In this document: in pieces, positions 1,415 to 55,390 of the stretch | Layout: each line of letters opens with the position of its first letter | Position numbering within the stretch: position 1 is the stretch's first letter | Source: a virus | Strand: one strand, 5' to 3' | IMG/VR virus record: IMGVR_UViG_3300013006_000023 | Coordinates: 1-64,000 of that record | DNA length: 64,000 nt | Notes under the pieces: model-generated | Database searches by the model: none | Told to the model about the DNA's origin: nothing | Seen by the model: the letters and a program-made list of their open reading frames with translations, nothing else | Translations under genes and position numbers: made by a program

Positions 1415-1420
1415 ATAAAT

Positions 1421-1426
1421 TATTTA
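1421..1426 (-). promoter_or_regulatory. T4-type late promoter box (TAAATA), representative of about 22 copies
   Basis: AATAAATA-atttat-ATG on the minus strand, identical to the element before the tail sheath gene (61593-61609). Confidence 0.75.
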
Positions 1427-1456
1427 TTCTAAATAGTCAATTTTTTTATAATAACC

Positions 1457-1547: not shown

Positions 1548-3044
1548 TTAGAAGTAGACGGCTTGTGTTCCAGGCGTAAATGCTACACCGAGACCAGACA
1601 CAATGATAACGTGATAATAAAGATTCGCACCAAAGATGTTATCTACAACACCATAACGGGTTAATAGACCAACACGAGGTGAGAAATCATTAGGACCAAT
1701 CGTTCTCTGCACCATGACCGGAATATATGGACAATAGATGATACCAGTGTCATAGAATTCAGGACCCTTGTAACCAAGGAGTGCATACTCAAGACGAGGC
1801 GGGGTACGAGTGGTACCGGCAGGGAACGGGCCCTTACCAGCATAGTTACCACCTGCACCAGCTTCAAATTGAGCTTCTGTGCGTGTGTCACGATAAACAT
1901 TAAAACGACCACCAAGCGAGCCTACCTTTGCGACACCAACTGGCTGAGTGTTAACATTGCCTTGGACCGGTACCCACTGAAATTCAGGGAGCATTTCCAA
2001 GATGGCGCAAACACGAGGCGTACCAACAATAAAGTTAGCAGCACCACGACGATTGCGAACAGCAATTCTGTTAGCCTCAACAATTAGTCTCTGATAGAAG
2101 TCACGATTACGTTCAACGAGCCAGCGACCATCTGCAGAAGCAGGAGACCAGACTGAGAAGCCTGTTCCTAATCCGGCATTAAGGGCGGTTTGGATCATAC
2201 GAATAATCATTTCGCGATCAATTTCGGCCTGCAACTCATACGACATAGCGTTGGTGAGTTCGGTATCGATATCGATGCCATTCATATTCTTAAGATCCTG
2301 CTCTAACTCTACAGACCAGCGGGCTGAAAGTCTACGAGTTCCTGCTTCAACAGCAGTCTTTTCGAAACTCACAACAACCTGCGGAATCTTTGAAGTTAGC
2401 TCAAACTGACTGAGCAATTGTGCAACACCTTGATCCTGCGGCAACATTGCAAAATACGAGTTACCGGAAAGAGTTCCGGCAGACGTACCAGTGAAGCGCG
2501 TATCGAGGTATTGATAGCCCAACTCGGCACCAGATGATTGTGCAGCAGCAGGTGAGGCATTATCGGAACTTCCGAGTGAGCCGTCGCCGCCGTTGACCTG
2601 TGTACCGAGGGATGAACCTTCGTACTTATATCTTAAAGCAAAAGCAAGACCTACTGGGCCGCTCATGGGTTGCACACCAACGATTTCGTTAGTGATCAAC
2701 TCAGGAAACGTACGGCGAATCATGGGAATGAGGATCTTAGGGAGACGAGCATCGCCAGCAGCGTATGCGGAGTCATTCTGCGAAGGGAACTGGTTACCAT
2801 AGTAACCGGCGCCAGCAGCAGGACCACCAAATACATTGCTTGTGCCACCAGCAACGTTGCTGGCTTCAAAACACCACTTCTCTTGGTTTTCCAGGAGGAT
2901 GGCGGTGTTTAAGCGAGTGTGATCGTCTTCAATTGCGCGAACGTTATCTGAGGAGTAATCCAATACTGGACCCCACTTCTCGAGAAGAACCTTAGCGCGT
3001 GACTCATCAATGTAAGCCTGTGTAGGACGGATTTGTTTTGACAT
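1548..3044 (-). CDS. gp23: major capsid protein (T4 gp23-like)
   Basis: LLEKWGPVLD, TAILLENQE, VGVQPMSGPVGLAFALR, ELEQDLK, EIDRE, YCPYIP, PRVGLLTRYG. Confidence 0.97.
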   Translation of the reverse strand: MSKQIRPTQAYIDESRAKVLLEKWGPVLDYSSDNVRAIEDDHTRLNTAILLENQEKWCFEASNVAGGTSNVFGGPAAGAGYYGNQFPSQNDSAYAAGDARLPKILIPMIRRTFPELITNEIVGVQPMSGPVGLAFALRYKYEGSSLGTQVNGGDGSLGSSDNASPAAAQSSGAELGYQYLDTRFTGTSAGTLSGNSYFAMLPQDQGVAQLLSQFELTSKIPQVVVSFEKTAVEAGTRRLSARWSVELEQDLKNMNGIDIDTELTNAMSYELQAEIDREMIIRMIQTALNAGLGTGFSVWSPASADGRWLVERNRDFYQRLIVEANRIAVRNRRGAANFIVGTPRVCAILEMLPEFQWVPVQGNVNTQPVGVAKVGSLGGRFNVYRDTRTEAQFEAGAGGNYAGKGPFPAGTTRTPPRLEYALLGYKGPEFYDTGIIYCPYIPVMVQRTIGPNDFSPRVGLLTRYGVVDNIFGANLYYHVIIVSGLGVAFTPGTQAVYF

Positions 3045-4000: not shown

Positions 4001-5185
4001 TTAAAATATTTTGTTGTTTAGAGAATTCTCAATCCTTTCTTTTAACTTAGAACTGATGATGCTCTCTAAATATTTATTGGCTTCAGCGTAATTTTTTTGT
4101 GATATATTGTGAATAAATTTTACTATATCTGAAGATTCCTTAATCTTCTTTTTCTTTTTCTTTTTTCTATCTTCTTCATCTTCACCTTTAATAGCCCCTT
4201 TTATTTCCTTAACTGCACCGGGAGCAGCACCACCAATGAGACCACCAAGAGCAGCGGCACCAGCCGTTCCACCCATTAACCCGCCAGCTACGGCACCAAG
4301 AGTACCTGTGGCCAAGCCTTCCTTAGCTATAATCTTTTTTTTCTTTTTCTTTGACTCTTCCATCTCATTATTATTTATTGGCTTATTACCATTTTTCTGC
4401 TGTAATTTTTTATTAATAGCTTTAGCAGCTAAATCTGTCCCAGCTTGTAAAGCTATTTGTCGTGCAATTGCTGGGGCTAGTGCGTTTGCTCCTGCTGCTA
4501 AAGCTCCTACAAATTCTTTTACAACTTCTGGTTGCATTGACTCCATAGCTGTAAGAAGATATGTATCGAGAGTATCATCATCTTTTAATCCATACTTCTT
4601 TTTAATAGTTTCTCTATCCTTGTCAACTGAAGTCGATCGGCCGTAAAAAATATCTTGTGCCGCGGGATCAGCTTTTATCTTGTTTATTGTGTCTTTGGAT
4701 AATGATGTGGATGTCGACGAAGATGGAGCCACTGGCGAGGATGCAGTTACTGGTGATGCTGGTTTGGTGGCAGTTCCTGCAGTGGGAGTAGTTAACACAG
4801 GCGGGGTTGCTCCTGGAGCTGCTGCTGTGGGTGTGGCGGGTGATGCAGCTGTGCGTGCAGCAGGTGATGATGCAGAACTATTGGACAGCATGTTAATCAC
4901 AGAGTCAGGTATGTCAATATTAAATCTTTTTTTGAAAACATCTTTTGCAACTGCTGGTCCCACTTGTTTAATAACAGGAGCTAATGCGTTAATCAAAGAG
5001 CTGCCTATTTGTCCTGCAGAGCTACTAATCTTAGAAATGGTATCTGGATTTTTTGATACAAATTTACCAACTTGTTTGCCAAGTTTGTTTGCTTTGTACA
5101 ATGCTGCCCCACCAAGAGTTGCAGCAAGAGCTCCTTTGCCAAGCGCACCAAAGTTTACTTCGTTGACCAAATTACCATTCTTCAT
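4001..5185 (-). CDS. prohead core / internal head polyprotein (low complexity, Gly-zipper segments, poly-Lys tracts)
   Basis: Between gp21 and gp22; repeated x-x-E sites (LVNE, VVKE, IAKE, KIKE); the C-terminal 45 aa look like small T4-like prohead core proteins. Confidence 0.5.
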   Translation of the reverse strand: MKNGNLVNEVNFGALGKGALAATLGGAALYKANKLGKQVGKFVSKNPDTISKISSSAGQIGSSLINALAPVIKQVGPAVAKDVFKKRFNIDIPDSVINMLSNSSASSPAARTAASPATPTAAAPGATPPVLTTPTAGTATKPASPVTASSPVAPSSSTSTSLSKDTINKIKADPAAQDIFYGRSTSVDKDRETIKKKYGLKDDDTLDTYLLTAMESMQPEVVKEFVGALAAGANALAPAIARQIALQAGTDLAAKAINKKLQQKNGNKPINNNEMEESKKKKKKIIAKEGLATGTLGAVAGGLMGGTAGAAALGGLIGGAAPGAVKEIKGAIKGEDEEDRKKKKKKKIKESSDIVKFIHNISQKNYAEANKYLESIISSKLKERIENSLNNKIF

Positions 5186-5853
5186 ACAGTTTTAAGCACT
5201 TTGAAGAAGCTAATAATCTGTTCCTTTAAATAGTCCTGAACATCTTTTCTGGGCAAATTCAAAAGTGAACGCTCGAAATTACTATAAACTTCTTCAAGAT
5301 ATTTGTCGTCTTTCAATACAAACTGTTTGCTTTCTAGAATTCCATTAACGAAAGCTTTGGGGCACGACGGATCAGCCACACAATCAATGGCTACCAGTCT
5401 CATGTCTGTAACACGGTTGATACCACCTGCTTCTTCATTCAATTTCCCTAGAGCGCGGCTTGACATGCCCACTCTAACACCATCATTGATTAAAGATCTG
5501 ACAATCTGACCCATGGGGGTGGACAATACTTGGCTCCTGCCCATGACGTAATTGTTTTCAACTTTAAGATTTGTAACAATGTGACATGCTCTCTCTAAAT
5601 CTACCTCAGCGCTTGTGGGATGATTCAATTCACCCATGGCTCTTTTGGGTTCAACCATTTCCTTTACATAGCGGTTTACTTCCTTGACCATGTCATCTTT
5701 AGAATAAATTCTTTGGTTTTTATTAACCGTTTCATACATCATGTATGGCCCTTGAATAAATAATTTGGCCGCTCCTTTAGAATTTTTTTCTTCTAGAATA
5801 TATTCAAATTGTTCTTCTGGTGCAGGTGTTTCGACTAATAATCTATATGCCAT
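5182..5853 (-). CDS. gp21: prohead maturation protease (gp21-like)
   Basis: NKNQRIY, AMGELNHP, TPMGQIV, GMSSRALG, DCVADPS. Confidence 0.95.
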   Translation of the reverse strand: MAYRLLVETPAPEEQFEYILEEKNSKGAAKLFIQGPYMMYETVNKNQRIYSKDDMVKEVNRYVKEMVEPKRAMGELNHPTSAEVDLERACHIVTNLKVENNYVMGRSQVLSTPMGQIVRSLINDGVRVGMSSRALGKLNEEAGGINRVTDMRLVAIDCVADPSCPKAFVNGILESKQFVLKDDKYLEEVYSNFERSLLNLPRKDVQDYLKEQIISFFKVLKTV

Positions 5854-5883
5854 AATATTATTTATTAATTTGTAATGTATTTA

Positions 5884-6336
5884 TTATAAACCTAGCTCTT
5901 TCTCTGTTAATATTAGAAACTTATAACTCCTTTGTGCACACCATTTTTTAGCCGCCTGCCATTTGGCTGCATTTTGAATATATCGTCTACCCTCATATAT
6001 AACAGTGCTATTGCGCTTTTTGCCTGTTGTTGGTGGTTTTGTCTGACTGCTTGGTTTTATTTCGACAATATATTTAGACACTGTGTCACCTTCTTTGATT
6101 ACAAGCACACCATCAGTAAAATAACGGTGCACTTTACCGTCTATTGGATTGGTGTAAGGGATGACTATTGCTTCACTTGCCCATTCTAATACATTACTGT
6201 TCTCATCACACCATCTAAAAAATTTTAACTCCCATCCACTTCGGTACACTGGGTAGCCTTTGCCTACATATTTCTTATGGTTTCTTGGCTTGAAAACTCC
6301 TTGACGGAATTTACCTGAACTATTGATGGGTATCAT
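5884..6336 (-). CDS. gp4: head completion protein (gp4-like, TnsA-type nuclease fold)
   Basis: YRSGWELKFFRWCD, WASE, HRYFTD, IVEIKP, NAAKWQAA, ILTEKEL. Confidence 0.88.
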   Translation of the reverse strand: MIPINSSGKFRQGVFKPRNHKKYVGKGYPVYRSGWELKFFRWCDENSNVLEWASEAIVIPYTNPIDGKVHRYFTDGVLVIKEGDTVSKYIVEIKPSSQTKPPTTGKKRNSTVIYEGRRYIQNAAKWQAAKKWCAQRSYKFLILTEKELGL

Positions 6337-26052: not shown

Positions 26053-26667
26053 TTATATTTTATTCGCAGGCATTACAGTTAAAGCACCTTTAACATTGTC
26101 CACCACTCTGTAAGGCTGTAATGCACCACCATATTTACTTCTTATTGAGAACACGTCACCTCGCACCAGCTTATCCGGTTGTTTGTTTGACTTGTATATG
26201 CTTGGATTTTGCATGAAATAATCAACATCAAACATCTGCGCATTTTTTTGAAAATCACTTGTACCATAAAGCCTCTTCATTTGATCCTTCTGCAATTGTG
26301 TATCAACGGAGCTCTTTGCACCCTGTATTCCTTTTGAGATACCTCTCTCTGCACCAGCTAAAGCTTTTTGCGCTCCACCTAATACAGGGTTCGTTATATT
26401 TGATATATCACCGCTTGAATTTGGTCCGTAAACTATTCCTTGTCTCAAGGCATTTACAGCTGCACCCGGCGCGCCAATTGCCCCTTTGAGTCCTCCAGCT
26501 ACTGCACCTGCACCCTTAAGATATGTTCTCGGATCAATTGCTTTTTTAGCTAGATAGCCTGCACCTTTGAATGGCGCTTTAATAGCTGTTTTAGCTGCAG
26601 CTTTAATATAATCACTCATGGCTTCGGCAATAATTCTATCCACTGCTTCATCAAACTTAAGATTCAT
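26053..26667 (-). CDS. putative internal head protein (Gly/Ala-rich, basic)
   Basis: Leader MNLKFDEAVDRIIAE followed by amphipathic G/A/K helices. Confidence 0.55.
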   Translation of the reverse strand: MNLKFDEAVDRIIAEAMSDYIKAAAKTAIKAPFKGAGYLAKKAIDPRTYLKGAGAVAGGLKGAIGAPGAAVNALRQGIVYGPNSSGDISNITNPVLGGAQKALAGAERGISKGIQGAKSSVDTQLQKDQMKRLYGTSDFQKNAQMFDVDYFMQNPSIYKSNKQPDKLVRGDVFSIRSKYGGALQPYRVVDNVKGALTVMPANKI

Positions 26668-28268: not shown

Positions 28269-28907
28269 ATGTTTGCAAGAGATTACAACACATTAAATGA
28301 ACTGTATGATACGAAAATTATCAAAGAAAATGTAGGCCTAGGCCCGCTAGCAGACAACAACAATACTACACCTAGTAACACACAAGCAGTAAGAATTAAG
28401 ATGCCACCCAAAAGAACCTGCGGTGAAAATGAAGAGCATTGTGCTTATGCTGCACAAGGTTGTGAATGTGGTGAATGTAGTGAATGTGCACACTCTGAGA
28501 GCTCCTCAGAAGATTGTGAAGGATACGATCCATCATCATACGATAGTAACGGTAAAATGGCAAGACAATTGCTTTTCAGAGTTCATAAACTTTCTGCCAT
28601 GCTTCACGATTTATTAAACAATAAAGACAATATTGAAGCCTGGGTGTTGAGTAAAATTACAAATGCACATGATCAGATAGCATCAGTATTTGGTTATGAA
28701 GATTATGAAGCTGCACTCAATTCAAATCATGGAATGTGTGGTGATAATTTAGAAGAGAATAATGAAGAAGAGCTTTTTAAGAGAATTGATGCAGGTGGAC
28801 TTGACATTCTTGATTTATTAAAATCAAAACTTAGCAGAGAATCAAAAGAGACATTAGAGAAGGTGTTGCTTGAAACAATTATTTTGTTAGAGAAGAAGTC
28901 TAAATAA
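28269..28907 (+). CDS. putative internal head protein with Cys-rich insert
   Basis: Start moved to ATG 28269 (TAAATA 5 nt upstream); leader ends IIKE; contains a GKMARQLL...WVLSKIT helical domain. Confidence 0.6.
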   Translation: MFARDYNTLNELYDTKIIKENVGLGPLADNNNTTPSNTQAVRIKMPPKRTCGENEEHCAYAAQGCECGECSECAHSESSSEDCEGYDPSSYDSNGKMARQLLFRVHKLSAMLHDLLNNKDNIEAWVLSKITNAHDQIASVFGYEDYEAALNSNHGMCGDNLEENNEEELFKRIDAGGLDILDLLKSKLSRESKETLEKVLLETIILLEKKSK

Positions 28908-29553
28908 GTTTCTTATTAAATAGATCAAAAATCCTTGGATCAAACTTACCTATAATTTGCGCTATATATTCTTTTCTCTGTTGGTCGTTGGCCGATTTGT
29001 ACATGTTCCTTAGTTCTGTTGCACTGGATATGCTCTTTCCACCCACATTGAATTGCACTGTGCCAGGAGAAAAAATGTATCCATGTCCGCCATCTTGCTT
29101 GAAGGGTACCATATCACTTAGACTTACAAATGGCTGAAAATATGTAGGGCGGCCGTCTCTTGTTACACCAAATTTAAATCTTGGATCTTCCTTCATATCC
29201 TTCTCTCCAACAGCATAAACTGCTTTGGCAACATTCTGGTCATAATCATTTAAAATTTCTATGGGTTTGTAAGGTTGCTTAACCTGCACTATCTCATGAC
29301 TGGGTACACCTGCTGCTTCCATGATTTGTTTTTTCTCTTGAAAGCTAAATGGATATCTACTTGCATCGTCTGTCTTCTGTGGAGCATCTGAGGTAGCTAT
29401 AAAAAAATCAGCTCCTGGAAATTGCTTCTTGGCCATATCAAAGAATTTCTTGTGACCAATGTGAAATGGCTGAAATCTGCCTGGAAAAATAACTATAAGA
29501 TTATTTTTTTGGTGCTGCAGCACTTCACTAATATATTGTTTAAATGTTTTCAT
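28900..29553 (-). CDS. HIGH-motif nucleotidyltransferase (cytidylyltransferase/NMNAT-like)
   Basis: FPGRFQPFHIGH, YPFSFQEK, AVGEKD, SATELR; leader MKTFKQYISE. Confidence 0.85.
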   Translation of the reverse strand: MKTFKQYISEVLQHQKNNLIVIFPGRFQPFHIGHKKFFDMAKKQFPGADFFIATSDAPQKTDDASRYPFSFQEKKQIMEAAGVPSHEIVQVKQPYKPIEILNDYDQNVAKAVYAVGEKDMKEDPRFKFGVTRDGRPTYFQPFVSLSDMVPFKQDGGHGYIFSPGTVQFNVGGKSISSATELRNMYKSANDQQRKEYIAQIIGKFDPRIFDLFNKKLI

Positions 29554-30755
29554 GCTCTTGGTGTCAGCACATTTGCTGAGCCTTCCATGCCATAAGGCGG
29601 GTTTGTTTGATAGTTCATTCTATTACCTACTGTGTTAATATTCTTCAACTCACTTGTAACATTGCTCTCTTCTTCAGATTTTTTCTGAGCAAACTTACCA
29701 GCTTCTTTACCAGTAATAAAATTGCCGGTAATCTTTACTGGGTTATTCGATATGGATGCATCGCGTACTACTATACCTTCTTGTGTATTCAAAGAGCCAA
29801 GGTCTGATGTAGCCGCATCCTTAATGGCCTGTCCAAGTGAGATAGTAGCTTGATAAAAAACAGCACCATCAATTACTGTTTGCATTGATTTTTCATCATT
29901 AACATACAAATCCAATGGCATGCTGCTCGAAACATTCTTATAATTCTCCAAACTCATAGCTGCTATTGTTCTTCCGGACTTAAGCTTAATTTTTTCATTG
30001 CGCGGATTTTTTGCTGTTGCAAGCCATTCACTAAGAGGCTTTGTTACTATATTTTTTGTATTGTAAGCAACTGTAAAAGGACTACGTAATGCAACGTTTA
30101 GATTCATATTATTTAACTTTATAGTGAACTCATGCTCCACATCAAAACCTTGTTTCTTTGCTATGGGATTTATTTTATCTATCAATGTTAACAAAGCATT
30201 TTTATCAAATGATATCTCTCTGGATGCTCTGCTCATACTGCCACGCACCGGGCTCTTCACACTAATAATTTCATTCAACCCATGAATTGCAAGAAAATTA
30301 TTTGCATATCCAACCACATTGGTCTCACCTTTAACATATTCCATGTTAAATAAAATTTTATCATTGTCCCACATGCCCAACTTCTTCAGATCCTGCTCTA
30401 TAGAAGGAATTGCTGTGTTAAAGATATTTAAAACAGTGGCTCCTATGGTGAGCATTCCATGACCTGCCGGAAACCTGCCAGCAAGTCTGCCCACTGTTAC
30501 ACCAGCCACATCTTCAGGCTTATTTGAACCTCTATCAAGAGCAAATTCTTTTTGATCTTCTTCATTGTTGATGAGTCTAATGGATGCATTAATGCCATCA
30601 ATCTTTAATGAAGCAGGTGTCTTAGCCAAGCTTTTTATTATTTTATTAAAGATGTTAATTAAATTTTTACCAGTATTTGCTTCTGGTAGATCAAATGGAT
30701 GTGCCATATGCCCTGCTACCCCGCCTTCTAATAAGAACTGCTTAAACGTTATCAT
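29550..30755 (-). CDS. RNA-ligase-like covalent nucleotidyltransferase with capsid-targeting-like leader
   Basis: Motif I SLKIDG, NMEYV, motif IV QEGIVVR, motif V PVKITG; leader MITFKQFLLE. Confidence 0.6.
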   Translation of the reverse strand: MITFKQFLLEGGVAGHMAHPFDLPEANTGKNLINIFNKIIKSLAKTPASLKIDGINASIRLINNEEDQKEFALDRGSNKPEDVAGVTVGRLAGRFPAGHGMLTIGATVLNIFNTAIPSIEQDLKKLGMWDNDKILFNMEYVKGETNVVGYANNFLAIHGLNEIISVKSPVRGSMSRASREISFDKNALLTLIDKINPIAKKQGFDVEHEFTIKLNNMNLNVALRSPFTVAYNTKNIVTKPLSEWLATAKNPRNEKIKLKSGRTIAAMSLENYKNVSSSMPLDLYVNDEKSMQTVIDGAVFYQATISLGQAIKDAATSDLGSLNTQEGIVVRDASISNNPVKITGNFITGKEAGKFAQKKSEEESNVTSELKNINTVGNRMNYQTNPPYGMEGSANVLTPRA

Positions 30756-31668
30756 TATTCCTTTTTTTACGCGACTTATTATTCAACAAATGCATTAAAA
30801 TTTTCTTTACATCTTGAGGGGATTCCAGATTCAAATTGCTTGGCGCAAGGTCATAAGATTGTAATTTAGGTGTTATGCGATATAAGGCAGTTCTTATACG
30901 AATAGGTGCACCTTTGTATGTGATGCTTCTGCTGCCGTTTGGACCTAATCTACATTCTATTGTGCATATGCCTTTGAATTCTGGTACACCTATGCCTTGA
31001 ATATCTGTACCCAAATAGTAAAGTCCCAACCCACCAATTTGAATATAATAACAATCCTTACTATTGTAGTGTTTGATAATAGTACTCACATCATTATTTT
31101 TTAAACGCACGTTAAGATCACTTAGTAAACCTTCCTGAGCTGCTTTGTCCCATGCTGTTACTGCTATCTTTCCTGTTGGTGCACGATACTGTAATGCAGA
31201 ATGTAATTCAATTGGATCACACTTCTTTATATATTCTATGTATGCTTGAAGTGCAGGTAATCTGCTTTGTGCTGCTTTTGTTACAAAGGGCAAAACAGCT
31301 GAATCTACACTGCTTGCATCAACAATTTCTACTTTACCAGTTGTTGCATCCATTCGCACAGATGTTGAACCCATTTGAGCATCCCTATTCATCTTCACTT
31401 CAACGTTGAACGGTGCACCATCTGCTTCAATACGCACATCAGCTCCGACATTACTAAAAGCACTTCCTCTGCGATTTATCTTGACTTTTGATAATGAAAA
31501 ATCCTCAATAACACTCTGAATTAATTGTGTAATCTTATGCTCATATACTGCACCACCCATGCCAGCCTTCTCCCTGTGCAACACATCATGAGCAGGTAAG
31601 AGTGGTACCTCTCTTGCGAAAGTCTCAGCAAGGTACACATCACTCAAACTTTTGTAATTTTTACTCAC
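30742..31668 (-). CDS. PD-(D/E)xK restriction-like endonuclease
   Basis: GAVYE...GADVRI...FNVEVKM; YNSKDCYYIQIG. Confidence 0.6.
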   Translation of the reverse strand: MSKNYKSLSDVYLAETFAREVPLLPAHDVLHREKAGMGGAVYEHKITQLIQSVIEDFSLSKVKINRRGSAFSNVGADVRIEADGAPFNVEVKMNRDAQMGSTSVRMDATTGKVEIVDASSVDSAVLPFVTKAAQSRLPALQAYIEYIKKCDPIELHSALQYRAPTGKIAVTAWDKAAQEGLLSDLNVRLKNNDVSTIIKHYNSKDCYYIQIGGLGLYYLGTDIQGIGVPEFKGICTIECRLGPNGSRSITYKGAPIRIRTALYRITPKLQSYDLAPSNLNLESPQDVKKILMHLLNNKSRKKRNNDNV

Positions 31669-32105
31669 GACTTGACATCATTACTATATCTCTTCATTGC
31701 AGATAAAATTTGTTTATACTTTGCCATAAAATTATCCTCATTAATTGTATCAACAAATTGCTTAAAATGAGGATTGTCCAATCTCTCTGGATTATCTTCA
31801 TAGTTTAAGTTCTGACTTATGGCCTCTTGCAAGCCTTCTCTAATGTTCTCAACATTTTCACGTGTAATGGTAGTTGTAAAGAGTGTGTCAATAGAACCAG
31901 ATGGTATATTCATTATCAAGGCTTTTGCGAGAAGCCTGACTAGATCCACGTATCCTTCTGGTGGCAGAGCCTGTGGTGGTGTCTTTATCTGCGGATTGAC
32001 TGCCGGATCTTCATTTGGAGCAGGGGTAGTTGCATCCTGGGGGTTAGGCTCTCCAACAGCTTCAAATACTGACATGTATGCTTCAATTTTTTTACTAAAA
32101 CTCAT
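31665..32105 (-). CDS. putative internal head protein
   Basis: Leader MSFSKKIEAYMSVFE; TATAAATA 5 nt upstream; first gene of a four-gene operon. Confidence 0.55.
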   Translation of the reverse strand: MSFSKKIEAYMSVFEAVGEPNPQDATTPAPNEDPAVNPQIKTPPQALPPEGYVDLVRLLAKALIMNIPSGSIDTLFTTTITRENVENIREGLQEAISQNLNYEDNPERLDNPHFKQFVDTINEDNFMAKYKQILSAMKRYSNDVKS

Positions 32106-32118
32106 ATGTTTATTTATA

Positions 32119-32689: not shown

Positions 32690-33121
32690 TCAGTATAAAT
32701 GTTTATTTTGTTCTATCAAGCTTTTTGGTGGCCGGCCAATTCTTACATTCATTATACCATTATAATATTCATCGCTTAACAATACCCCCCTGTTTATTTG
32801 TTCCTTTATTTCAAAATATGCCAACTCCCACTTTGATCCACATATTTTAATTATTTCAAAAGTAAAGCTGTTCTTTCCAAGCTTTATAATGTCTTCATTC
32901 AACTCAACTGAGCTGCTTGTATAAGCTCTCCAATCTGTTTCCTTTACTTCAATTCTCTTGTTCCTCTTGCCCTTGAGAGGTTTTCTCTTGTATTTCGTTT
33001 TGCACTGCTTCTTACCTATATACTTTCTGTTATTAGTATTATTTGTAATTTCATATATAAAGCCAAAAGCCTCATCACTTAATATGACATTCTCTCTTAA
33101 AATCCAATGACCTGTATCCAT
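32690..33121 (-). CDS. GIY-YIG-fold nuclease-like protein
   Basis: GFIYEITN...KYIGKK...DWRAYTSSS...YYNG. Confidence 0.7.
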   Translation of the reverse strand: MDTGHWILRENVILSDEAFGFIYEITNNTNNRKYIGKKQCKTKYKRKPLKGKRNKRIEVKETDWRAYTSSSVELNEDIIKLGKNSFTFEIIKICGSKWELAYFEIKEQINRGVLLSDEYYNGIMNVRIGRPPKSLIEQNKHLY

Positions 33122-33130
33122 AAAGTTATA

Positions 33131-33367
33131 CTATAAACCTGCAAAAGATCTTCTTTTTAATTTTGTTTTTTTCTTTTTCTTGCCAAACGGCCATCTAGAA
33201 TCACCAGGTGCATATGCTAAATCGTTTTGTGAAGGGAATTGATTGCCATGGCTGCCGGCTGGGCCACCAGCACCTGTACCAAATACACCTTCAGCTCCTC
33301 CGGCGACATTCATATCTTCTAATAGTGCTCTATTAAATGCGTCTTCAAAATTTAGTATGGATTTCAT
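33131..33367 (-). CDS. 78-aa protein mimicking the mature N-arm of the major capsid protein, with basic tail
   Basis: GNQFPSQNDLAYAPGDSRWP versus capsid GNQFPSQNDSAYAAGDARLP; leader ends LLE; C-terminal KKKKKTKLKRR. Confidence 0.8.
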   Translation of the reverse strand: MKSILNFEDAFNRALLEDMNVAGGAEGVFGTGAGGPAGSHGNQFPSQNDLAYAPGDSRWPFGKKKKKTKLKRRSFAGL

Positions 33368-33392
33368 AATATAGTATACTATTATTTATGTA

Positions 33393-33785
33393 ATGCTACT
33401 TGAAGATTATATCAATGAACTGGAAAGCGACCTTAAAATAGATGAGCTTATTCTCAAAGACTATCAGCTCAAATTACCTGGCATCAAGCATAAGTGGACT
33501 GGAAGATGCATAAGGCACAAGCTACAATTGTTTCAGATTAAGAAAGACAGAGAAACAATTAAAAAGAATCTGGTAGATAAGCTTCAACAGGCAAGCCCAG
33601 TTAAATTGGCTCAACCTGTGGCTGAAAGAACAGTAGAGAAGCATAGTGAGATTCTTGAAATAGACAGTAAAATAAAAGAATTAGACTTAATTGTGGAATT
33701 GCTTGAAAGGTCTGAAAAAACATTCAGTTCGACTTCATATGATATTAAAAACATCATAGATATTATAAAGCTTGAAACTACATGA
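33393..33785 (+). CDS. uvsY: recombination mediator (UvsY-like)
   Basis: DLKIDE..L, LPGIKHKW, YDIKNIID; immediately upstream of uvsW. Confidence 0.7.
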   Translation: MLLEDYINELESDLKIDELILKDYQLKLPGIKHKWTGRCIRHKLQLFQIKKDRETIKKNLVDKLQQASPVKLAQPVAERTVEKHSEILEIDSKIKELDLIVELLERSEKTFSSTSYDIKNIIDIIKLETT

Positions 33786-53962: not shown

Positions 53963-55006
53963 GTGGTTATACCTCAAGAATATATTGTTCAGAAATTCTA
54001 TCAGTATGCAGGTTACCCTAAGTTCAAGAAATTTAGCAACACATACATGGCCGGGTGTCCAATATGCAGAGAAGGAAAATCATGGAACAAAAAACGTAGA
54101 TGCATTTATTTGGTAGATGATAATAAAATTTGCTGTCATAATTGTGGTTGGTATGGTGATACTGTCAAGTGGGTGCAAGAAGTCTCCGGACTTACTTTTG
54201 TGGAAATTATAAATGAATCGAAAAATTATGAGATTTTGCCTCTGGAAGCATTAGCGGACGACCAGAGAAGCGACATTCAAAAACCCATCAAAGTTGAAAG
54301 ACTGCCACTTGAATCAATTGATTTATTTGACAAGATGCAGATTAATTACTATAACAACAATAGGACAGTTAATGATGCACTGCTCTTGTTAGAGAAGAGA
54401 AGAATGATTAACGCTATCAATAGACCCAAATCTTTGTTTCTATCATTGAATGATAAAGTTCATAAGAACAGAATCATAATACCTTTCTATAACGAGGAAA
54501 ATGAGGTCATCTTCTATCAATCAAGAATCATCTATGATAAAGATCTGAGGCTGTATCCCAAATACTTGAGCAAAATAAATGGTGAAAAATCTCTGTACAA
54601 CATTAACAACATAAATGCAGATTTAGAATATATCTTTGTTTTTGAAGGCCCTATTGATGCATTTTTTGTGCGCAATGGCACAGCAATTTCAGGTATTCAA
54701 GAGAATAGCCACACCATGTTTTCTGCATTACAGGAGAATCAGCTGAATTCATTTAAATTTCACAAACGCATTTGGGTGCTGGATAGTCAATATAATGATA
54801 GGGCCAGCAGAAACAAGACTGAGAAGCTCATACAAAATGGTGAAACTGTATTCATATGGCCTGAAAATGACGGCAAAAAATACAAGGATATTAATGATCT
54901 GGTAATAGATAAAAAAATAGATTCAGTGGATCCAAGTTATTTTGTTGAAAATTCCCACAGCGGAATCAAGGCAAAATTATTATTATCTGTCATTAGCAGA
55001 AATTAA
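53963..55006 (+). CDS. gp61: DNA primase (gp61)
   Basis: Zinc finger CPICREG...CHNCG, RIIIPF, YQSR, PKY, TOPRIM FEGPIDA, KDIND. Confidence 0.92.
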   Translation: MVIPQEYIVQKFYQYAGYPKFKKFSNTYMAGCPICREGKSWNKKRRCIYLVDDNKICCHNCGWYGDTVKWVQEVSGLTFVEIINESKNYEILPLEALADDQRSDIQKPIKVERLPLESIDLFDKMQINYYNNNRTVNDALLLLEKRRMINAINRPKSLFLSLNDKVHKNRIIIPFYNEENEVIFYQSRIIYDKDLRLYPKYLSKINGEKSLYNINNINADLEYIFVFEGPIDAFFVRNGTAISGIQENSHTMFSALQENQLNSFKFHKRIWVLDSQYNDRASRNKTEKLIQNGETVFIWPENDGKKYKDINDLVIDKKIDSVDPSYFVENSHSGIKAKLLLSVISRN

Positions 55007-55390
55007 GTACCCCTTCATTGATTCACTCAATGAGCTTAATTCTGCGGCCAGCCTGGCAATCTTCTTTTTCTCACTTCTGGCCATGTCCTCAAATATTGAA
55101 TCACAAGGAGCAGCATGCAGCTGCACTTGAATAGAATCAGAATCTGTGCCATTTAAAAATTTAATAAACACATCAATTTGCTCAATCCATCCTCTTAATG
55201 ACTGCAATTGATGTTGCTTGTTTTGATCAACAACTGTCTCTCTGCCTTTAATATCATAGTCTTCAGGTGCTGTGGTTTTTAGAGTTTGCGCCATGGCATT
55301 TCTATCATTTTGTGGAGCTGCTACTGCAGTATCATCCATGTTCTCATCCGCTTCAAGCACTGTATCAAACACCTTATTAAAGAGACTCAT
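54983..55390 (-). CDS. putative internal head protein
   Basis: Leader MSLFNKVFDTVLE; TAAATA 5 nt upstream. Confidence 0.55.
   Translation of the reverse strand: MSLFNKVFDTVLEADENMDDTAVAAPQNDRNAMAQTLKTTAPEDYDIKGRETVVDQNKQHQLQSLRGWIEQIDVFIKFLNGTDSDSIQVQLHAAPCDSIFEDMARSEKKKIARLAAELSSLSESMKGYLISANDR

What the first reader, a model, noticed from the sequence alone, without database searches (positions are those of the whole stretch)
33131..33367. Stand-alone 78-aa mimic of the major capsid protein's mature N-terminal arm, fused to a poly-basic tail
Seen: residues 17-60 (E-DMNVAGGAEGVFG-TGAGGPAGSH-GNQFPSQNDLAYAPGDSRWP) align with gp23 residues 60-102 (E-ASNVAGGTSNVFG-GPAAGAGYY-GNQFPSQNDSAYAAGDARLP, nt 2739-2867), 30 kb away. 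The last 20 residues are 16/20 identical. In the identical GNQFPSQND block, 7 of 9 codons differ only at third positions (ggt aac cag ttc cct tcg cag aat gac vs ggc aat caa ttc cct tca caa aac gat), which argues for selection on the peptide rather than a recent duplication. Similarity starts at a Glu in both proteins (CFE|, LLE|) and stops where the capsid fold begins, replaced by KKKKKTKLKRR. Known: T4 gp21 cleaves gp23 and internal proteins after (I/L)-x-E, and the mature N-arm binds neighbouring subunits. Inference: this is a packaged, protease-matured spare N-arm that fills vacant arm-binding grooves (portal or pentamer vertices) and tethers DNA to the inner capsid wall, or a decoy that regulates or poisons capsid assembly. 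I know of no described equivalent.
Basis: partly seen in the sequence, partly recalled or inferred. Interest (0 to 1): 0.92.

Follow-up and report, generated by a model that had tools for sequence, protein, structure and literature searches.

The report
Free-standing copy of capsid arm
A small, conserved phage gene encodes a loose copy of the major capsid protein's N-terminal arm, preceded by a T4-style head-targeting leader and interrupted by a lysine run; the copy changes in step with its own phage's capsid arm, so it is probably a new kind of head-internal accessory protein.

Summary
The ORF at 33131-33367 (-) matches gp23 residues 59-116 (E=3e-15). It is not an accident or a remnant.

- It is a positional ortholog, sitting between uvsY (divergent) and a conserved SegE-type GIY-YIG gene. 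It occurs in a large clade of uncultured ~200-kb T4-like phages with no gp24 paralog: 73 of 80 loci anchored on the GIY gene carry it, and about 160 clusters at 50% identity match the family profile.
- It is under purifying selection, with dN/dS 0.18 overall and 0.05 in the core.
- Its arm segment tracks the cognate gp23 arm between lineages (permutation p about 3e-4; the arm tree mixes the two genes). Synonymous sites are scrambled, so recent gene conversion does not explain the match.
- Its 17-residue leader is a helix ending in L-L-E. It belongs to the same leader type as T4 IPII/IPIII and as neighbouring enzymes of this phage.
- The poly-Lys is an insertion inside the arm, not a tail. Similarity resumes at RRSFAGL against gp23 RRTFPEL.

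Best reading: a leader-targeted head-internal peptide, cut by gp21, that docks where gp23 arms dock and contacts DNA. Packaging, cleavage, docking and DNA binding are all inferred and none is shown. Some relatives fuse the module to enzymes, which suggests a cargo tag. No described equivalent was found.

The parts
33131..33367 (-). Small ORF, 78 aa plus stop: leader, gp23-arm copy, Lys-rich insertion, RRxFxxL end
   Evidence: purifying selection
33317..33367 (-). Leader, residues 1-17, a predicted helix ending L-L-E. Putative capsid-targeting and propeptide segment, with the inferred gp21 cut after E17
   Evidence: Helix 3-18 in the AF2 model. Same leader type as window genes 28900-29553 and 29550-30755 and as T4 IPII/IPIII. 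Sub-lineages of the family carry 10-aa T4-like leaders
33188..33316 (-). Arm copy, residues 18-60, homologous to gp23 61-102 (N-fist plus start of N-arm by alignment to T4 gp23)
   Evidence: co-variation
33188..33247 (-). Invariant core, residues 41-60 (GNQFPSQND..YAPGD.R.P)
   Evidence: Invariant columns in A1; dN/dS 0.05
33149..33181 (-). Lys/Arg-rich insertion, residues 63-73
   Evidence: Present in nearly all family members and absent from gp23
33134..33154 (-). C-terminal RRSFAGL, the counterpart of gp23 R110-L116 (RRTFPEL)
   Evidence: relatives L270 and L231 keep near-exact gp23-like versions
33383..33389 (-). ATAAATA late-promoter-like box, 15 nt before the ATG, in the 25-nt gap to uvsY
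   Evidence: degenerate (TTAAATA) in most relatives
2697..2864 (-). gp23 residues 61-116: the arm that the small protein copies
1548..3044 (-). gp23 major capsid protein gene
   Evidence: phrog_138 E=4e-81; matches PDB T4 gp23
5182..5853 (-). gp21-type prohead protease (Peptidase_S77), the presumed processing enzyme
32690..33121 (-). Conserved SegE-type GIY-YIG protein, 143 aa, the next gene in the same operon
   Evidence: PF19835 E=2e-28; synteny
33393..33785 (+). uvsY, the divergent neighbour that marks the conserved position
   Evidence: phrog_231

Best explanation
The ORF is a genuine, ancient gene of a large clade of uncultured T4-like phages. It encodes a 78-aa pre-protein with three parts. 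(a) A 17-residue helical leader of the T4 capsid-targeting type, ending in L-L-E. (b) A copy of the segment of gp23 that becomes the N-fist and N-arm of the mature capsid protein. (c) A Lys/Arg run inserted into that arm before the conserved RRxFPxL element. The inferred mechanism runs as follows. The leader takes the protein into the scaffolding core of the prohead. The gp21 protease cuts after E17 and releases a 61-aa, 6.3-kDa peptide of pI 10. The arm part of that peptide binds the same surfaces of the gp23 lattice, or the same assembly partner, that gp23's own arm binds. Candidate places are sites that gp23 arms leave empty, such as around the portal or at penton-hexon junctions. The basic loop contacts packaged DNA. 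Selection keeps the copy matched to the phage's own capsid arm. Shown here: the homology, the conservation, the selection, the co-variation, the leader class and the operon position. Inferred only: packaging, cleavage, docking site and DNA binding.
For: Homology to gp23 59-116, E=3e-15, far above shuffles. Conserved position uvsY | small - GIY-YIG - o188 in close relatives and in distant ones (uvsY 27-48% identical). 73 of 80 loci fetched through the GIY gene alone carry a family member directly upstream, often with stop and start overlapping. About 160 clusters at 50% identity match the family profile. Pooled dN/dS is 0.18 overall and 0.05 in the core, with synonymous sites saturated; gp23's own arm shows the same pattern. 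Between-lineage tracking: the cognate pairing of small arm and gp23 arm beats permutations over 13 gp23-body clusters, p about 2-4e-4. In L213/L277 and L099/L193 both proteins carry the same lineage-specific arm, unlike the window's. The L099 pair is 30/44 identical in protein but only 10/30 at third positions of the shared codons. In an ML tree of arm segments the two genes are intermixed: well-supported branches force at least 3 changes, and 0 of 200 bootstrap trees give one origin. Leader: window genes start MKTFKQYISE and MITFKQFLLE, and T4 IPII/IPIII start MKTYQEFIAE, read from NC_000866. Family sub-lineages have 10-aa leaders of the same type. The leader is the only predicted helix. A Glu precedes the arm in every member, including internal copies in fusion proteins. 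A gp21-type protease is encoded in the window. Precedent: P1 DarA-Hdf pairs sit on the inner capsid surface at penton-hexon junctions and touch DNA (PMC12810830). T4 shows unassigned helical densities under vertex subunits that may be core-derived peptides (PMC9546572). T4 N-fists facing the portal are unbound (PMC7136217).
Against: There is no direct evidence of expression, cleavage or virion association. In T4 the N-fist and N-arm end on the outer capsid surface after expansion (PMC9958956), so a peptide that stays inside cannot simply occupy the same sites. Within the window's own clade the arm does not track the cognate gp23 beyond the shared invariant motif. Fusions to bulky domains at either end fit badly with a tightly packed lattice element. 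Some distant members have lost most of the arm motif (L247, L265, L248). The late-promoter-like box has atypical spacing and is degenerate in relatives. The tight coupling to the GIY-YIG gene is not explained by this reading.
Confidence: 0.4

Rival explanations
1. Loading tag and ejected DNA-bound internal protein. The arm copy is not a lattice element. It acts as an extended targeting signal that binds the scaffolding core (or whatever the unprocessed gp23 N-terminal region binds inside the prohead). The protein, or any enzyme fused to it, is thereby incorporated. After the core is degraded the basic peptide rides on the DNA and is injected with it, like the T4 internal proteins.
For: T4-type leader. 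Basic mature peptide. Natural fusions of the module to a GNAT acetyltransferase, DUF5661, a cREC_REC domain and unknown domains, at either end and always with the Glu site kept. Downstream genes of the same block also carry such leaders. The scaffold protein diverges fast between lineages (gp22 30-66% identical), which could drive parallel change in both arms.
Against: The leader alone suffices for targeting in T4 (PMC9026906), so a second signal seems redundant. The most conserved part of the arm is invariant across phages whose scaffolds differ a lot. No binding data exist.
Confidence: 0.25
2. Assembly regulator or decoy. The protein competes with the gp23 N-terminal region for a shared partner (gp21 protease, scaffold, portal or a folding helper). 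It times cleavage or expansion and is then degraded or lost, so it is not a stable virion component.
For: It has the same cleavage-site context as gp23 (E followed by x-N-V-A-G-G) and the same arm. It tracks the cognate arm. T4 has a head-located inhibitor of gp21 (Inh) encoded near segE/uvsW/uvsY; that comes from my own knowledge of the T4 map and was not checked here.
Against: A poly-Lys insertion and cargo fusions are not needed for a decoy. The strongest conservation lies far from the cut site. There is no similarity to any known inhibitor.
Confidence: 0.17
3. Partner of the downstream GIY-YIG nuclease. The protein is a small DNA-binding or inhibitory subunit, translationally coupled to the nuclease, and its capsid-arm likeness serves only to place the pair in the head or is historical.
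For: It lies next to the GIY-YIG gene in 73 of 80 loci, with stop and start overlapping or a few nt apart. No terminator lies between them. It has a basic run.
Against: Some lineages have the small gene without an adjacent GIY gene (L058, L106-L108, L112, L115). This reading does not explain why the arm must keep matching gp23 or why there is a cleavable leader.
Confidence: 0.08
4. Dead remnant of a partial gp23 duplication, for example carried along by a homing endonuclease. The synonymous differences would then be inherited from a diverged donor gene.
For: A GIY-YIG gene of the SegE type lies next to it.
Against: The GIY gene is itself a conserved, syntenic core gene (57-85% identical across loci) and not a mobile insertion. 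The small ORF stays intact in well over 100 loci, with dN/dS 0.05-0.3.
Confidence: 0.01

Closest known systems
T4 internal proteins IPI, IPII, IPIII and other proteins bearing a capsid targeting sequence (CTS), such as Alt
   Same: Short N-terminal leader of the same sequence type ending in hydrophobic-x-Glu. Small and basic. Encoded outside the head gene cluster. The leader is also found on diverse enzymes in the same phage (PMC9026906).
   Different: No sequence similarity in the mature part. T4 IPs vary from phage to phage, whereas this gene is a conserved positional ortholog. No T4 IP contains a copy of the capsid protein's arm.
N-fist and N-arm of mature T4 gp23* (residues 66-91 and onward)
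   Same: By alignment to T4 gp23, the copied segment runs from the maturation site to the RRxxPxL element. It is extended and unstructured on its own.
   Different: Here the segment is a separate polypeptide with its own leader and a Lys insertion. Sequence identity to T4 in this segment is negligible.
Phage P1 DarA-Hdf pairs
   Same: Head-internal proteins bound to the inner capsid wall at penton-hexon junctions that also touch DNA and leave with it (PMC12810830). This is the closest precedent for the proposed role.
   Different: Unrelated in sequence, much larger, and not derived from the capsid protein.
Encapsulin cargo-loading peptides and separate versus fused scaffolding (delta) domains of HK97-fold capsids
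   Same: Short peptides or N-terminal extensions that bind the luminal side of an HK97-fold shell and can carry cargo. This comes from my own knowledge and was not tested here.
   Different: Those peptides are not copies of the shell protein's mature arm, and no co-evolving duplicate is known.

Membership tests
T4-type CTS-bearing head-internal proteins | N-terminal leader of 10-19 residues resembling the IPIII targeting sequence | tested here: met
   The window leader has 17 residues and is helical. Sub-lineage leaders and two neighbouring window genes nearly match the T4 IPII/IPIII leader read from NC_000866. This is a comparison by eye of short motifs, with no statistic.
T4-type CTS-bearing head-internal proteins | Cleavage by the prohead protease after (L/I)-x-Glu | not testable with these tools
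   The L-L-E motif is present at residues 15-17, a Glu is conserved at this place across the family, and a gp21 homolog is present. Cleavage itself needs protein chemistry.
T4-type CTS-bearing head-internal proteins | Presence inside proheads and virions | not testable with these tools
   No cultured member was found and no proteome is available.
Gp23/HK97-fold major capsid proteins | HK97 fold (P and A domains) | tested here: not met
   Only gp23 residues 59-116 are matched. There is no Pfam or PHROG hit. The AF2 model has no fold beyond the leader helix.
Homing-endonuclease-associated gene fragment or pseudogene | Sporadic distribution, linkage to a mobile endonuclease, relaxed selection | tested here: not met
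   Near-universal synteny, a conserved GIY gene, and dN/dS 0.05-0.3.
Capsid-wall-bound, DNA-contacting internal proteins (P1 DarA/Hdf-like, by function) | Binding to the inner capsid surface and to DNA | not testable with these tools
   The complex prediction returned no verdict. Only the basic run and the arm homology suggest it.

The most novel reading that the evidence does not exclude
The peptide is an 'arm in trans'. It is a co-evolving free copy of the capsid protein's N-fist/N-arm that is loaded into the prohead and cut by the prohead protease. It then occupies arm-receptor sites that the lattice's own arms cannot fill (portal-proximal or penton-hexon positions in a phage without a dedicated vertex protein), and its Lys loop ties DNA to the shell. 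The same module serves as a natural tag that loads enzymes into the head. That would be a new class of capsid accessory protein.
Probability: 0.3. Interest if true: 0.9.

Novelty: new variant of a known kind. Interest (0 to 1): 0.74.

Why it matters
If the reading holds, a whole clade of abundant lake and marine T4-like phages completes or equips its capsid with a separately encoded copy of the capsid protein's own arm. The copy is kept matched to the capsid by selection. This would be a new answer to how HK97-fold shells deal with sites their own arms cannot reach, and to how DNA is coupled to the shell. It would also offer a natural, portable tag for loading proteins into T4-type heads. Independent of mechanism, the work defines a large unannotated protein family (about 160 clusters) with a clear architecture and a rare, clean case of two genes in one genome evolving in concert at the protein level without recent gene conversion.

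Tried and rejected
- Homing-endonuclease remnant: rejected, because the GIY gene is a conserved core gene and the ORF is under selection.
- Recent gene conversion as the cause of similarity: rejected. Third-position identity is 0.31 for cognate against 0.32 for non-cognate pairs in the window's clade, and 10/30 in the L099 pair.
- Fine-scale tracking within the window's clade: not found. The variable arm gives p=0.57. A weak core signal (p=0.02) rests on two related phages.
- Complex prediction (two gp23 bodies 117-498 plus peptide 18-78): no verdict, score 0.00, controls not run.
- Sequencing runs: no RNA holder listed; the stretch is held by lake-water DNA runs of several studies.
- Cultured phages: no match to the window DNA, the small protein or two distant members.
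- Pfam, PHROGs, the PDB profile search and the ESM Atlas gave no name for the small protein.
- BLASTP of the fusion proteins P0070 and P0103 against the Ala/Gly/Lys-rich core-region protein 4001-5185 showed only compositional likeness.
- The sigma-70 promoter scan was not above shuffles.
- The search for related loci with the distant-member alignment A2 failed for lack of a conserved stretch.

Full report
**1. Observation**

The window holds a 78-aa ORF at 33131..33367 on the minus strand. BLASTP against the major capsid protein gp23 (1548..3044, minus, 498 aa; phrog_138) aligns its residues 16-78 with gp23 59-116. The alignment has 34/63 identities and E=3e-15. The local score is 136, against 32 +/- 5 for 2000 shuffles.

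Two corrections apply. The Lys run is an insertion, because the match resumes at the C-terminal RRSFAGL against gp23 RRTFPEL. And the protein is far from unique.

**2. A conserved gene, not a remnant**

- The neighbouring 143-aa gene is a SegE-type GIY-YIG protein (PF19835). This first suggested a fragment dragged along by a homing endonuclease.
- That idea fails. In 80 IMG/VR loci found with the small protein, the order uvsW-uvsY (one strand) | small - GIY-YIG - o188 - o146 (other strand) is kept, and the GIY protein is 57-85% identical.
- The same order holds in much more distant phages, with uvsY only 27-48% identical.
- In 80 loci fetched through the GIY protein alone, a profile of the family finds a member directly upstream in 73. 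Two more have an ORF of the same build. The gap is usually -1 to 29 nt, often with stop and start overlapping.
- A profile search of 1.84 billion representatives gave 167 clusters at E<=0.001 and 29 at E<=1e-10. Nearly all are 55-100 aa, and a few weak long hits are probably Gly-rich noise.
- No cultured phage matched. No library names the protein.
- The phages are about 200-217 kb. Three records at least 91% complete (two 100% by CheckV, one of them with terminal repeats) have a single gp23 hit, so they have no gp24-type vertex paralog.

**3. Selection**

Over 33 distinct small genes, synonymous sites are saturated (pS about 0.7). Pooled Nei-Gojobori dN/dS values are below.

| Region | dN/dS |
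|---|---|
| Small gene, overall | 0.18 |
| Small gene, leader | 0.30 |
| Small gene, variable arm | 0.29 |
| Small gene, core (residues 41-60) | 0.05 |
| gp23, variable arm | 0.26 |
| gp23, core | 0.07 |

The gp23 arm shows the same profile as the copy.

**4. Tracking of the cognate capsid arm**

Within the window's clade (9 genomes holding both genes) there is no fine-scale tracking. Third-position identity between the two genes is 0.31 for cognate and 0.32 for non-cognate pairs, so there is no recent conversion either.

Between lineages the picture changes.
- In L099/L193 and L213/L277 both proteins carry one and the same lineage-specific arm, quite unlike the window's.
- The L099 pair is 30/44 identical in protein but only 10/30 at third positions of the shared codons, with Ser and Arg encoded by different codon families.
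- With 21 cognate pairs grouped into 13 clusters by gp23 body identity, the true pairing beats permutations at p about 2-4e-4.
- Under independent evolution after one old duplication, cognate and non-cognate pairs should be equally distant. This excess is therefore not a by-product of shared phylogeny.
- An ML tree of the arm segments mixes the two genes. Well-supported branches force at least three changes of label, none of 200 bootstrap trees gives one origin, and the L213/L215 arms of both genes form one group at 100/99. Only 61 columns were used, so the detail is weak.
- Some relatives even keep near-exact copies of the gp23 RRTFPELIT element after the basic run (L270, L231).

The copy has thus been kept, or repeatedly made, like the phage's own capsid arm at the protein level.

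**5. Anatomy**

- Residues 1-17 form the only predicted helix and end in L-L-E.
- Window genes 28900-29553 and 29550-30755 begin MKTFKQYISE and MITFKQFLLE.
- T4 IPII and IPIII, read from NC_000866, begin MKTYQEFIAE. The first ten residues of IPIII are the capsid targeting sequence, and gp21 removes them (PMC9026906).
- Sub-lineages of the small family carry ten-residue leaders of exactly this type (L048, L206).
- A Glu precedes the arm in every member, including internal copies in fusion proteins.
- A Peptidase_S77 (gp21) gene lies at 5182-5853.
- By alignment to T4 gp23 (PDB 6uzc), RRTFPEL at gp23 110-116 equals T4 RRAIPNL ending at residue 106. The copied part is therefore the N-fist (T4 66-91) plus the start of the N-arm (PMC7136217).
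- The mature peptide would have 61 aa, 6.3 kDa and pI 10.2.

**6. Fusions**

In relatives the module is joined to other domains, either after the RR element or in front of the leader-like segment. These include a GNAT acetyltransferase, DUF5661, a cREC_REC domain, a Cys-rich tail and several unknown domains. This is the pattern of a portable tag.

**7. Expression signals**

- ATAAATA occurs 46 times on both strands of the 107-kb record, and 26 of these lie within 45 nt upstream of 24 genes. Most are at -12 or -13, which implies very short leaders on late mRNAs.
- The small gene has the box at -22 (33383-33389), with a chance expectation of about 0.01 per 45-nt upstream stretch. Most relatives have TTAAATA there instead. 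That variant makes up about 14% of boxes at gene starts in relatives.
- The sigma-70 scan is not above background, and no terminator separates the small gene from the GIY gene.
- Timing is unresolved.

**8. Mechanism**

In T4 the N-terminal region of gp23 is disordered inside the unexpanded head. On expansion it moves to the outer surface and forms the N-arm and the N-fist, which contacts four subunits and helps form the Soc site (PMC9958956, PMC9546572). N-fists that face the portal stay unbound (PMC7136217). Unassigned helical densities under the vertex subunits may be core-derived peptides (PMC9546572). In P1, 55 DarA-Hdf pairs sit on the inner wall at penton-hexon junctions and touch DNA (PMC12810830).

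Against this background, the best reading is a leader-targeted, gp21-cut internal peptide. Its arm copy binds what the gp23 arm binds, and its basic loop binds DNA. I put the whole chain at 0.4.

The main rival, at 0.25, is that the arm copy is an extended loading signal for the scaffolding core and that the peptide then travels with the DNA. The fusions and the fast-evolving scaffold favour that rival. Next come a decoy or regulator of gp23 processing (0.17) and a partner of the GIY-YIG nuclease (0.08). The complex prediction gave no verdict, and no RNA run holds the locus.

**9. Novelty**

The leader class and the idea of small basic head-internal proteins are known from T4. A conserved, separately encoded copy of the capsid protein's mature arm that evolves in concert with it has no described equivalent. 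That statement covers the libraries and the papers I could search. I file it as a new variant of a known kind, with a 0.3 chance that it is a new class of capsid accessory protein.

Noticed in passing
window 28900-29553 (-), 29550-30755 (-), 31665-32105 (-), 26053-26667 (-), 54983-55390 (-): Several proteins, among them a cytidylyltransferase-like enzyme and a 401-aa protein, start with T4-type targeting leaders ending in hydrophobic-x-Glu. The 401-aa protein continues G-G-V-A-G after the Glu, like the small protein and gp23. They may be packaged enzymes.
   Followed up: partly
G000 whole record; e.g. window 1415-1427, 32106-32118, 5854-5866: ATAAATA boxes sit at a fixed -12/-13 from the start codon of about 20 genes. 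This implies late mRNAs with almost no 5' leader. gp23 itself has no such box within 70 nt upstream.
   Followed up: partly
window 32690-33121 (-): The SegE-type GIY-YIG protein has no DNA-binding domain and is a conserved core gene, not a mobile element. It is usually translationally coupled to the small gene. Its first ten residues (M-D-T-G-H-W-I-L-x-E) are strongly conserved and also end in L-x-E.
   Followed up: partly
window 4001-5185 (-): A 394-aa Ala/Gly/Pro-rich protein with two Lys runs lies between the prohead protease and the scaffold gene, the position of T4 gp67/gp68. It is a likely prohead core protein, and its length varies widely among relatives.
   Followed up: no
G025, G026, G027 (records behind L213, L248, L243): Complete or near-complete ~200-217 kb genomes of this clade have one gp23 gene and no gp24-like paralog, so gp23 presumably also builds the pentons.
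   Followed up: partly
L125:7245-8186, L166:4122-5486, L129:3664-4305, L116:8007-8378; proteins P0097, P0125, P0094: The arm plus poly-Lys module is fused to large unknown domains, a GNAT acetyltransferase, DUF5661 with cREC_REC, a DGxHR-containing domain and a Cys-rich tail in different lineages.
   Followed up: partly
window 5884-6336 (-): A TnsA-like endonuclease N-terminal domain protein (PF08722) lies just upstream of the prohead protease gene. A homolog appears in distant relatives near other conserved genes.
   Followed up: no
L247:2238-2501, L265:2280-2501: In two lineages the ORF at the family's position keeps the leader, the Lys run and the RR element but has lost the recognisable arm motif.
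   Followed up: no
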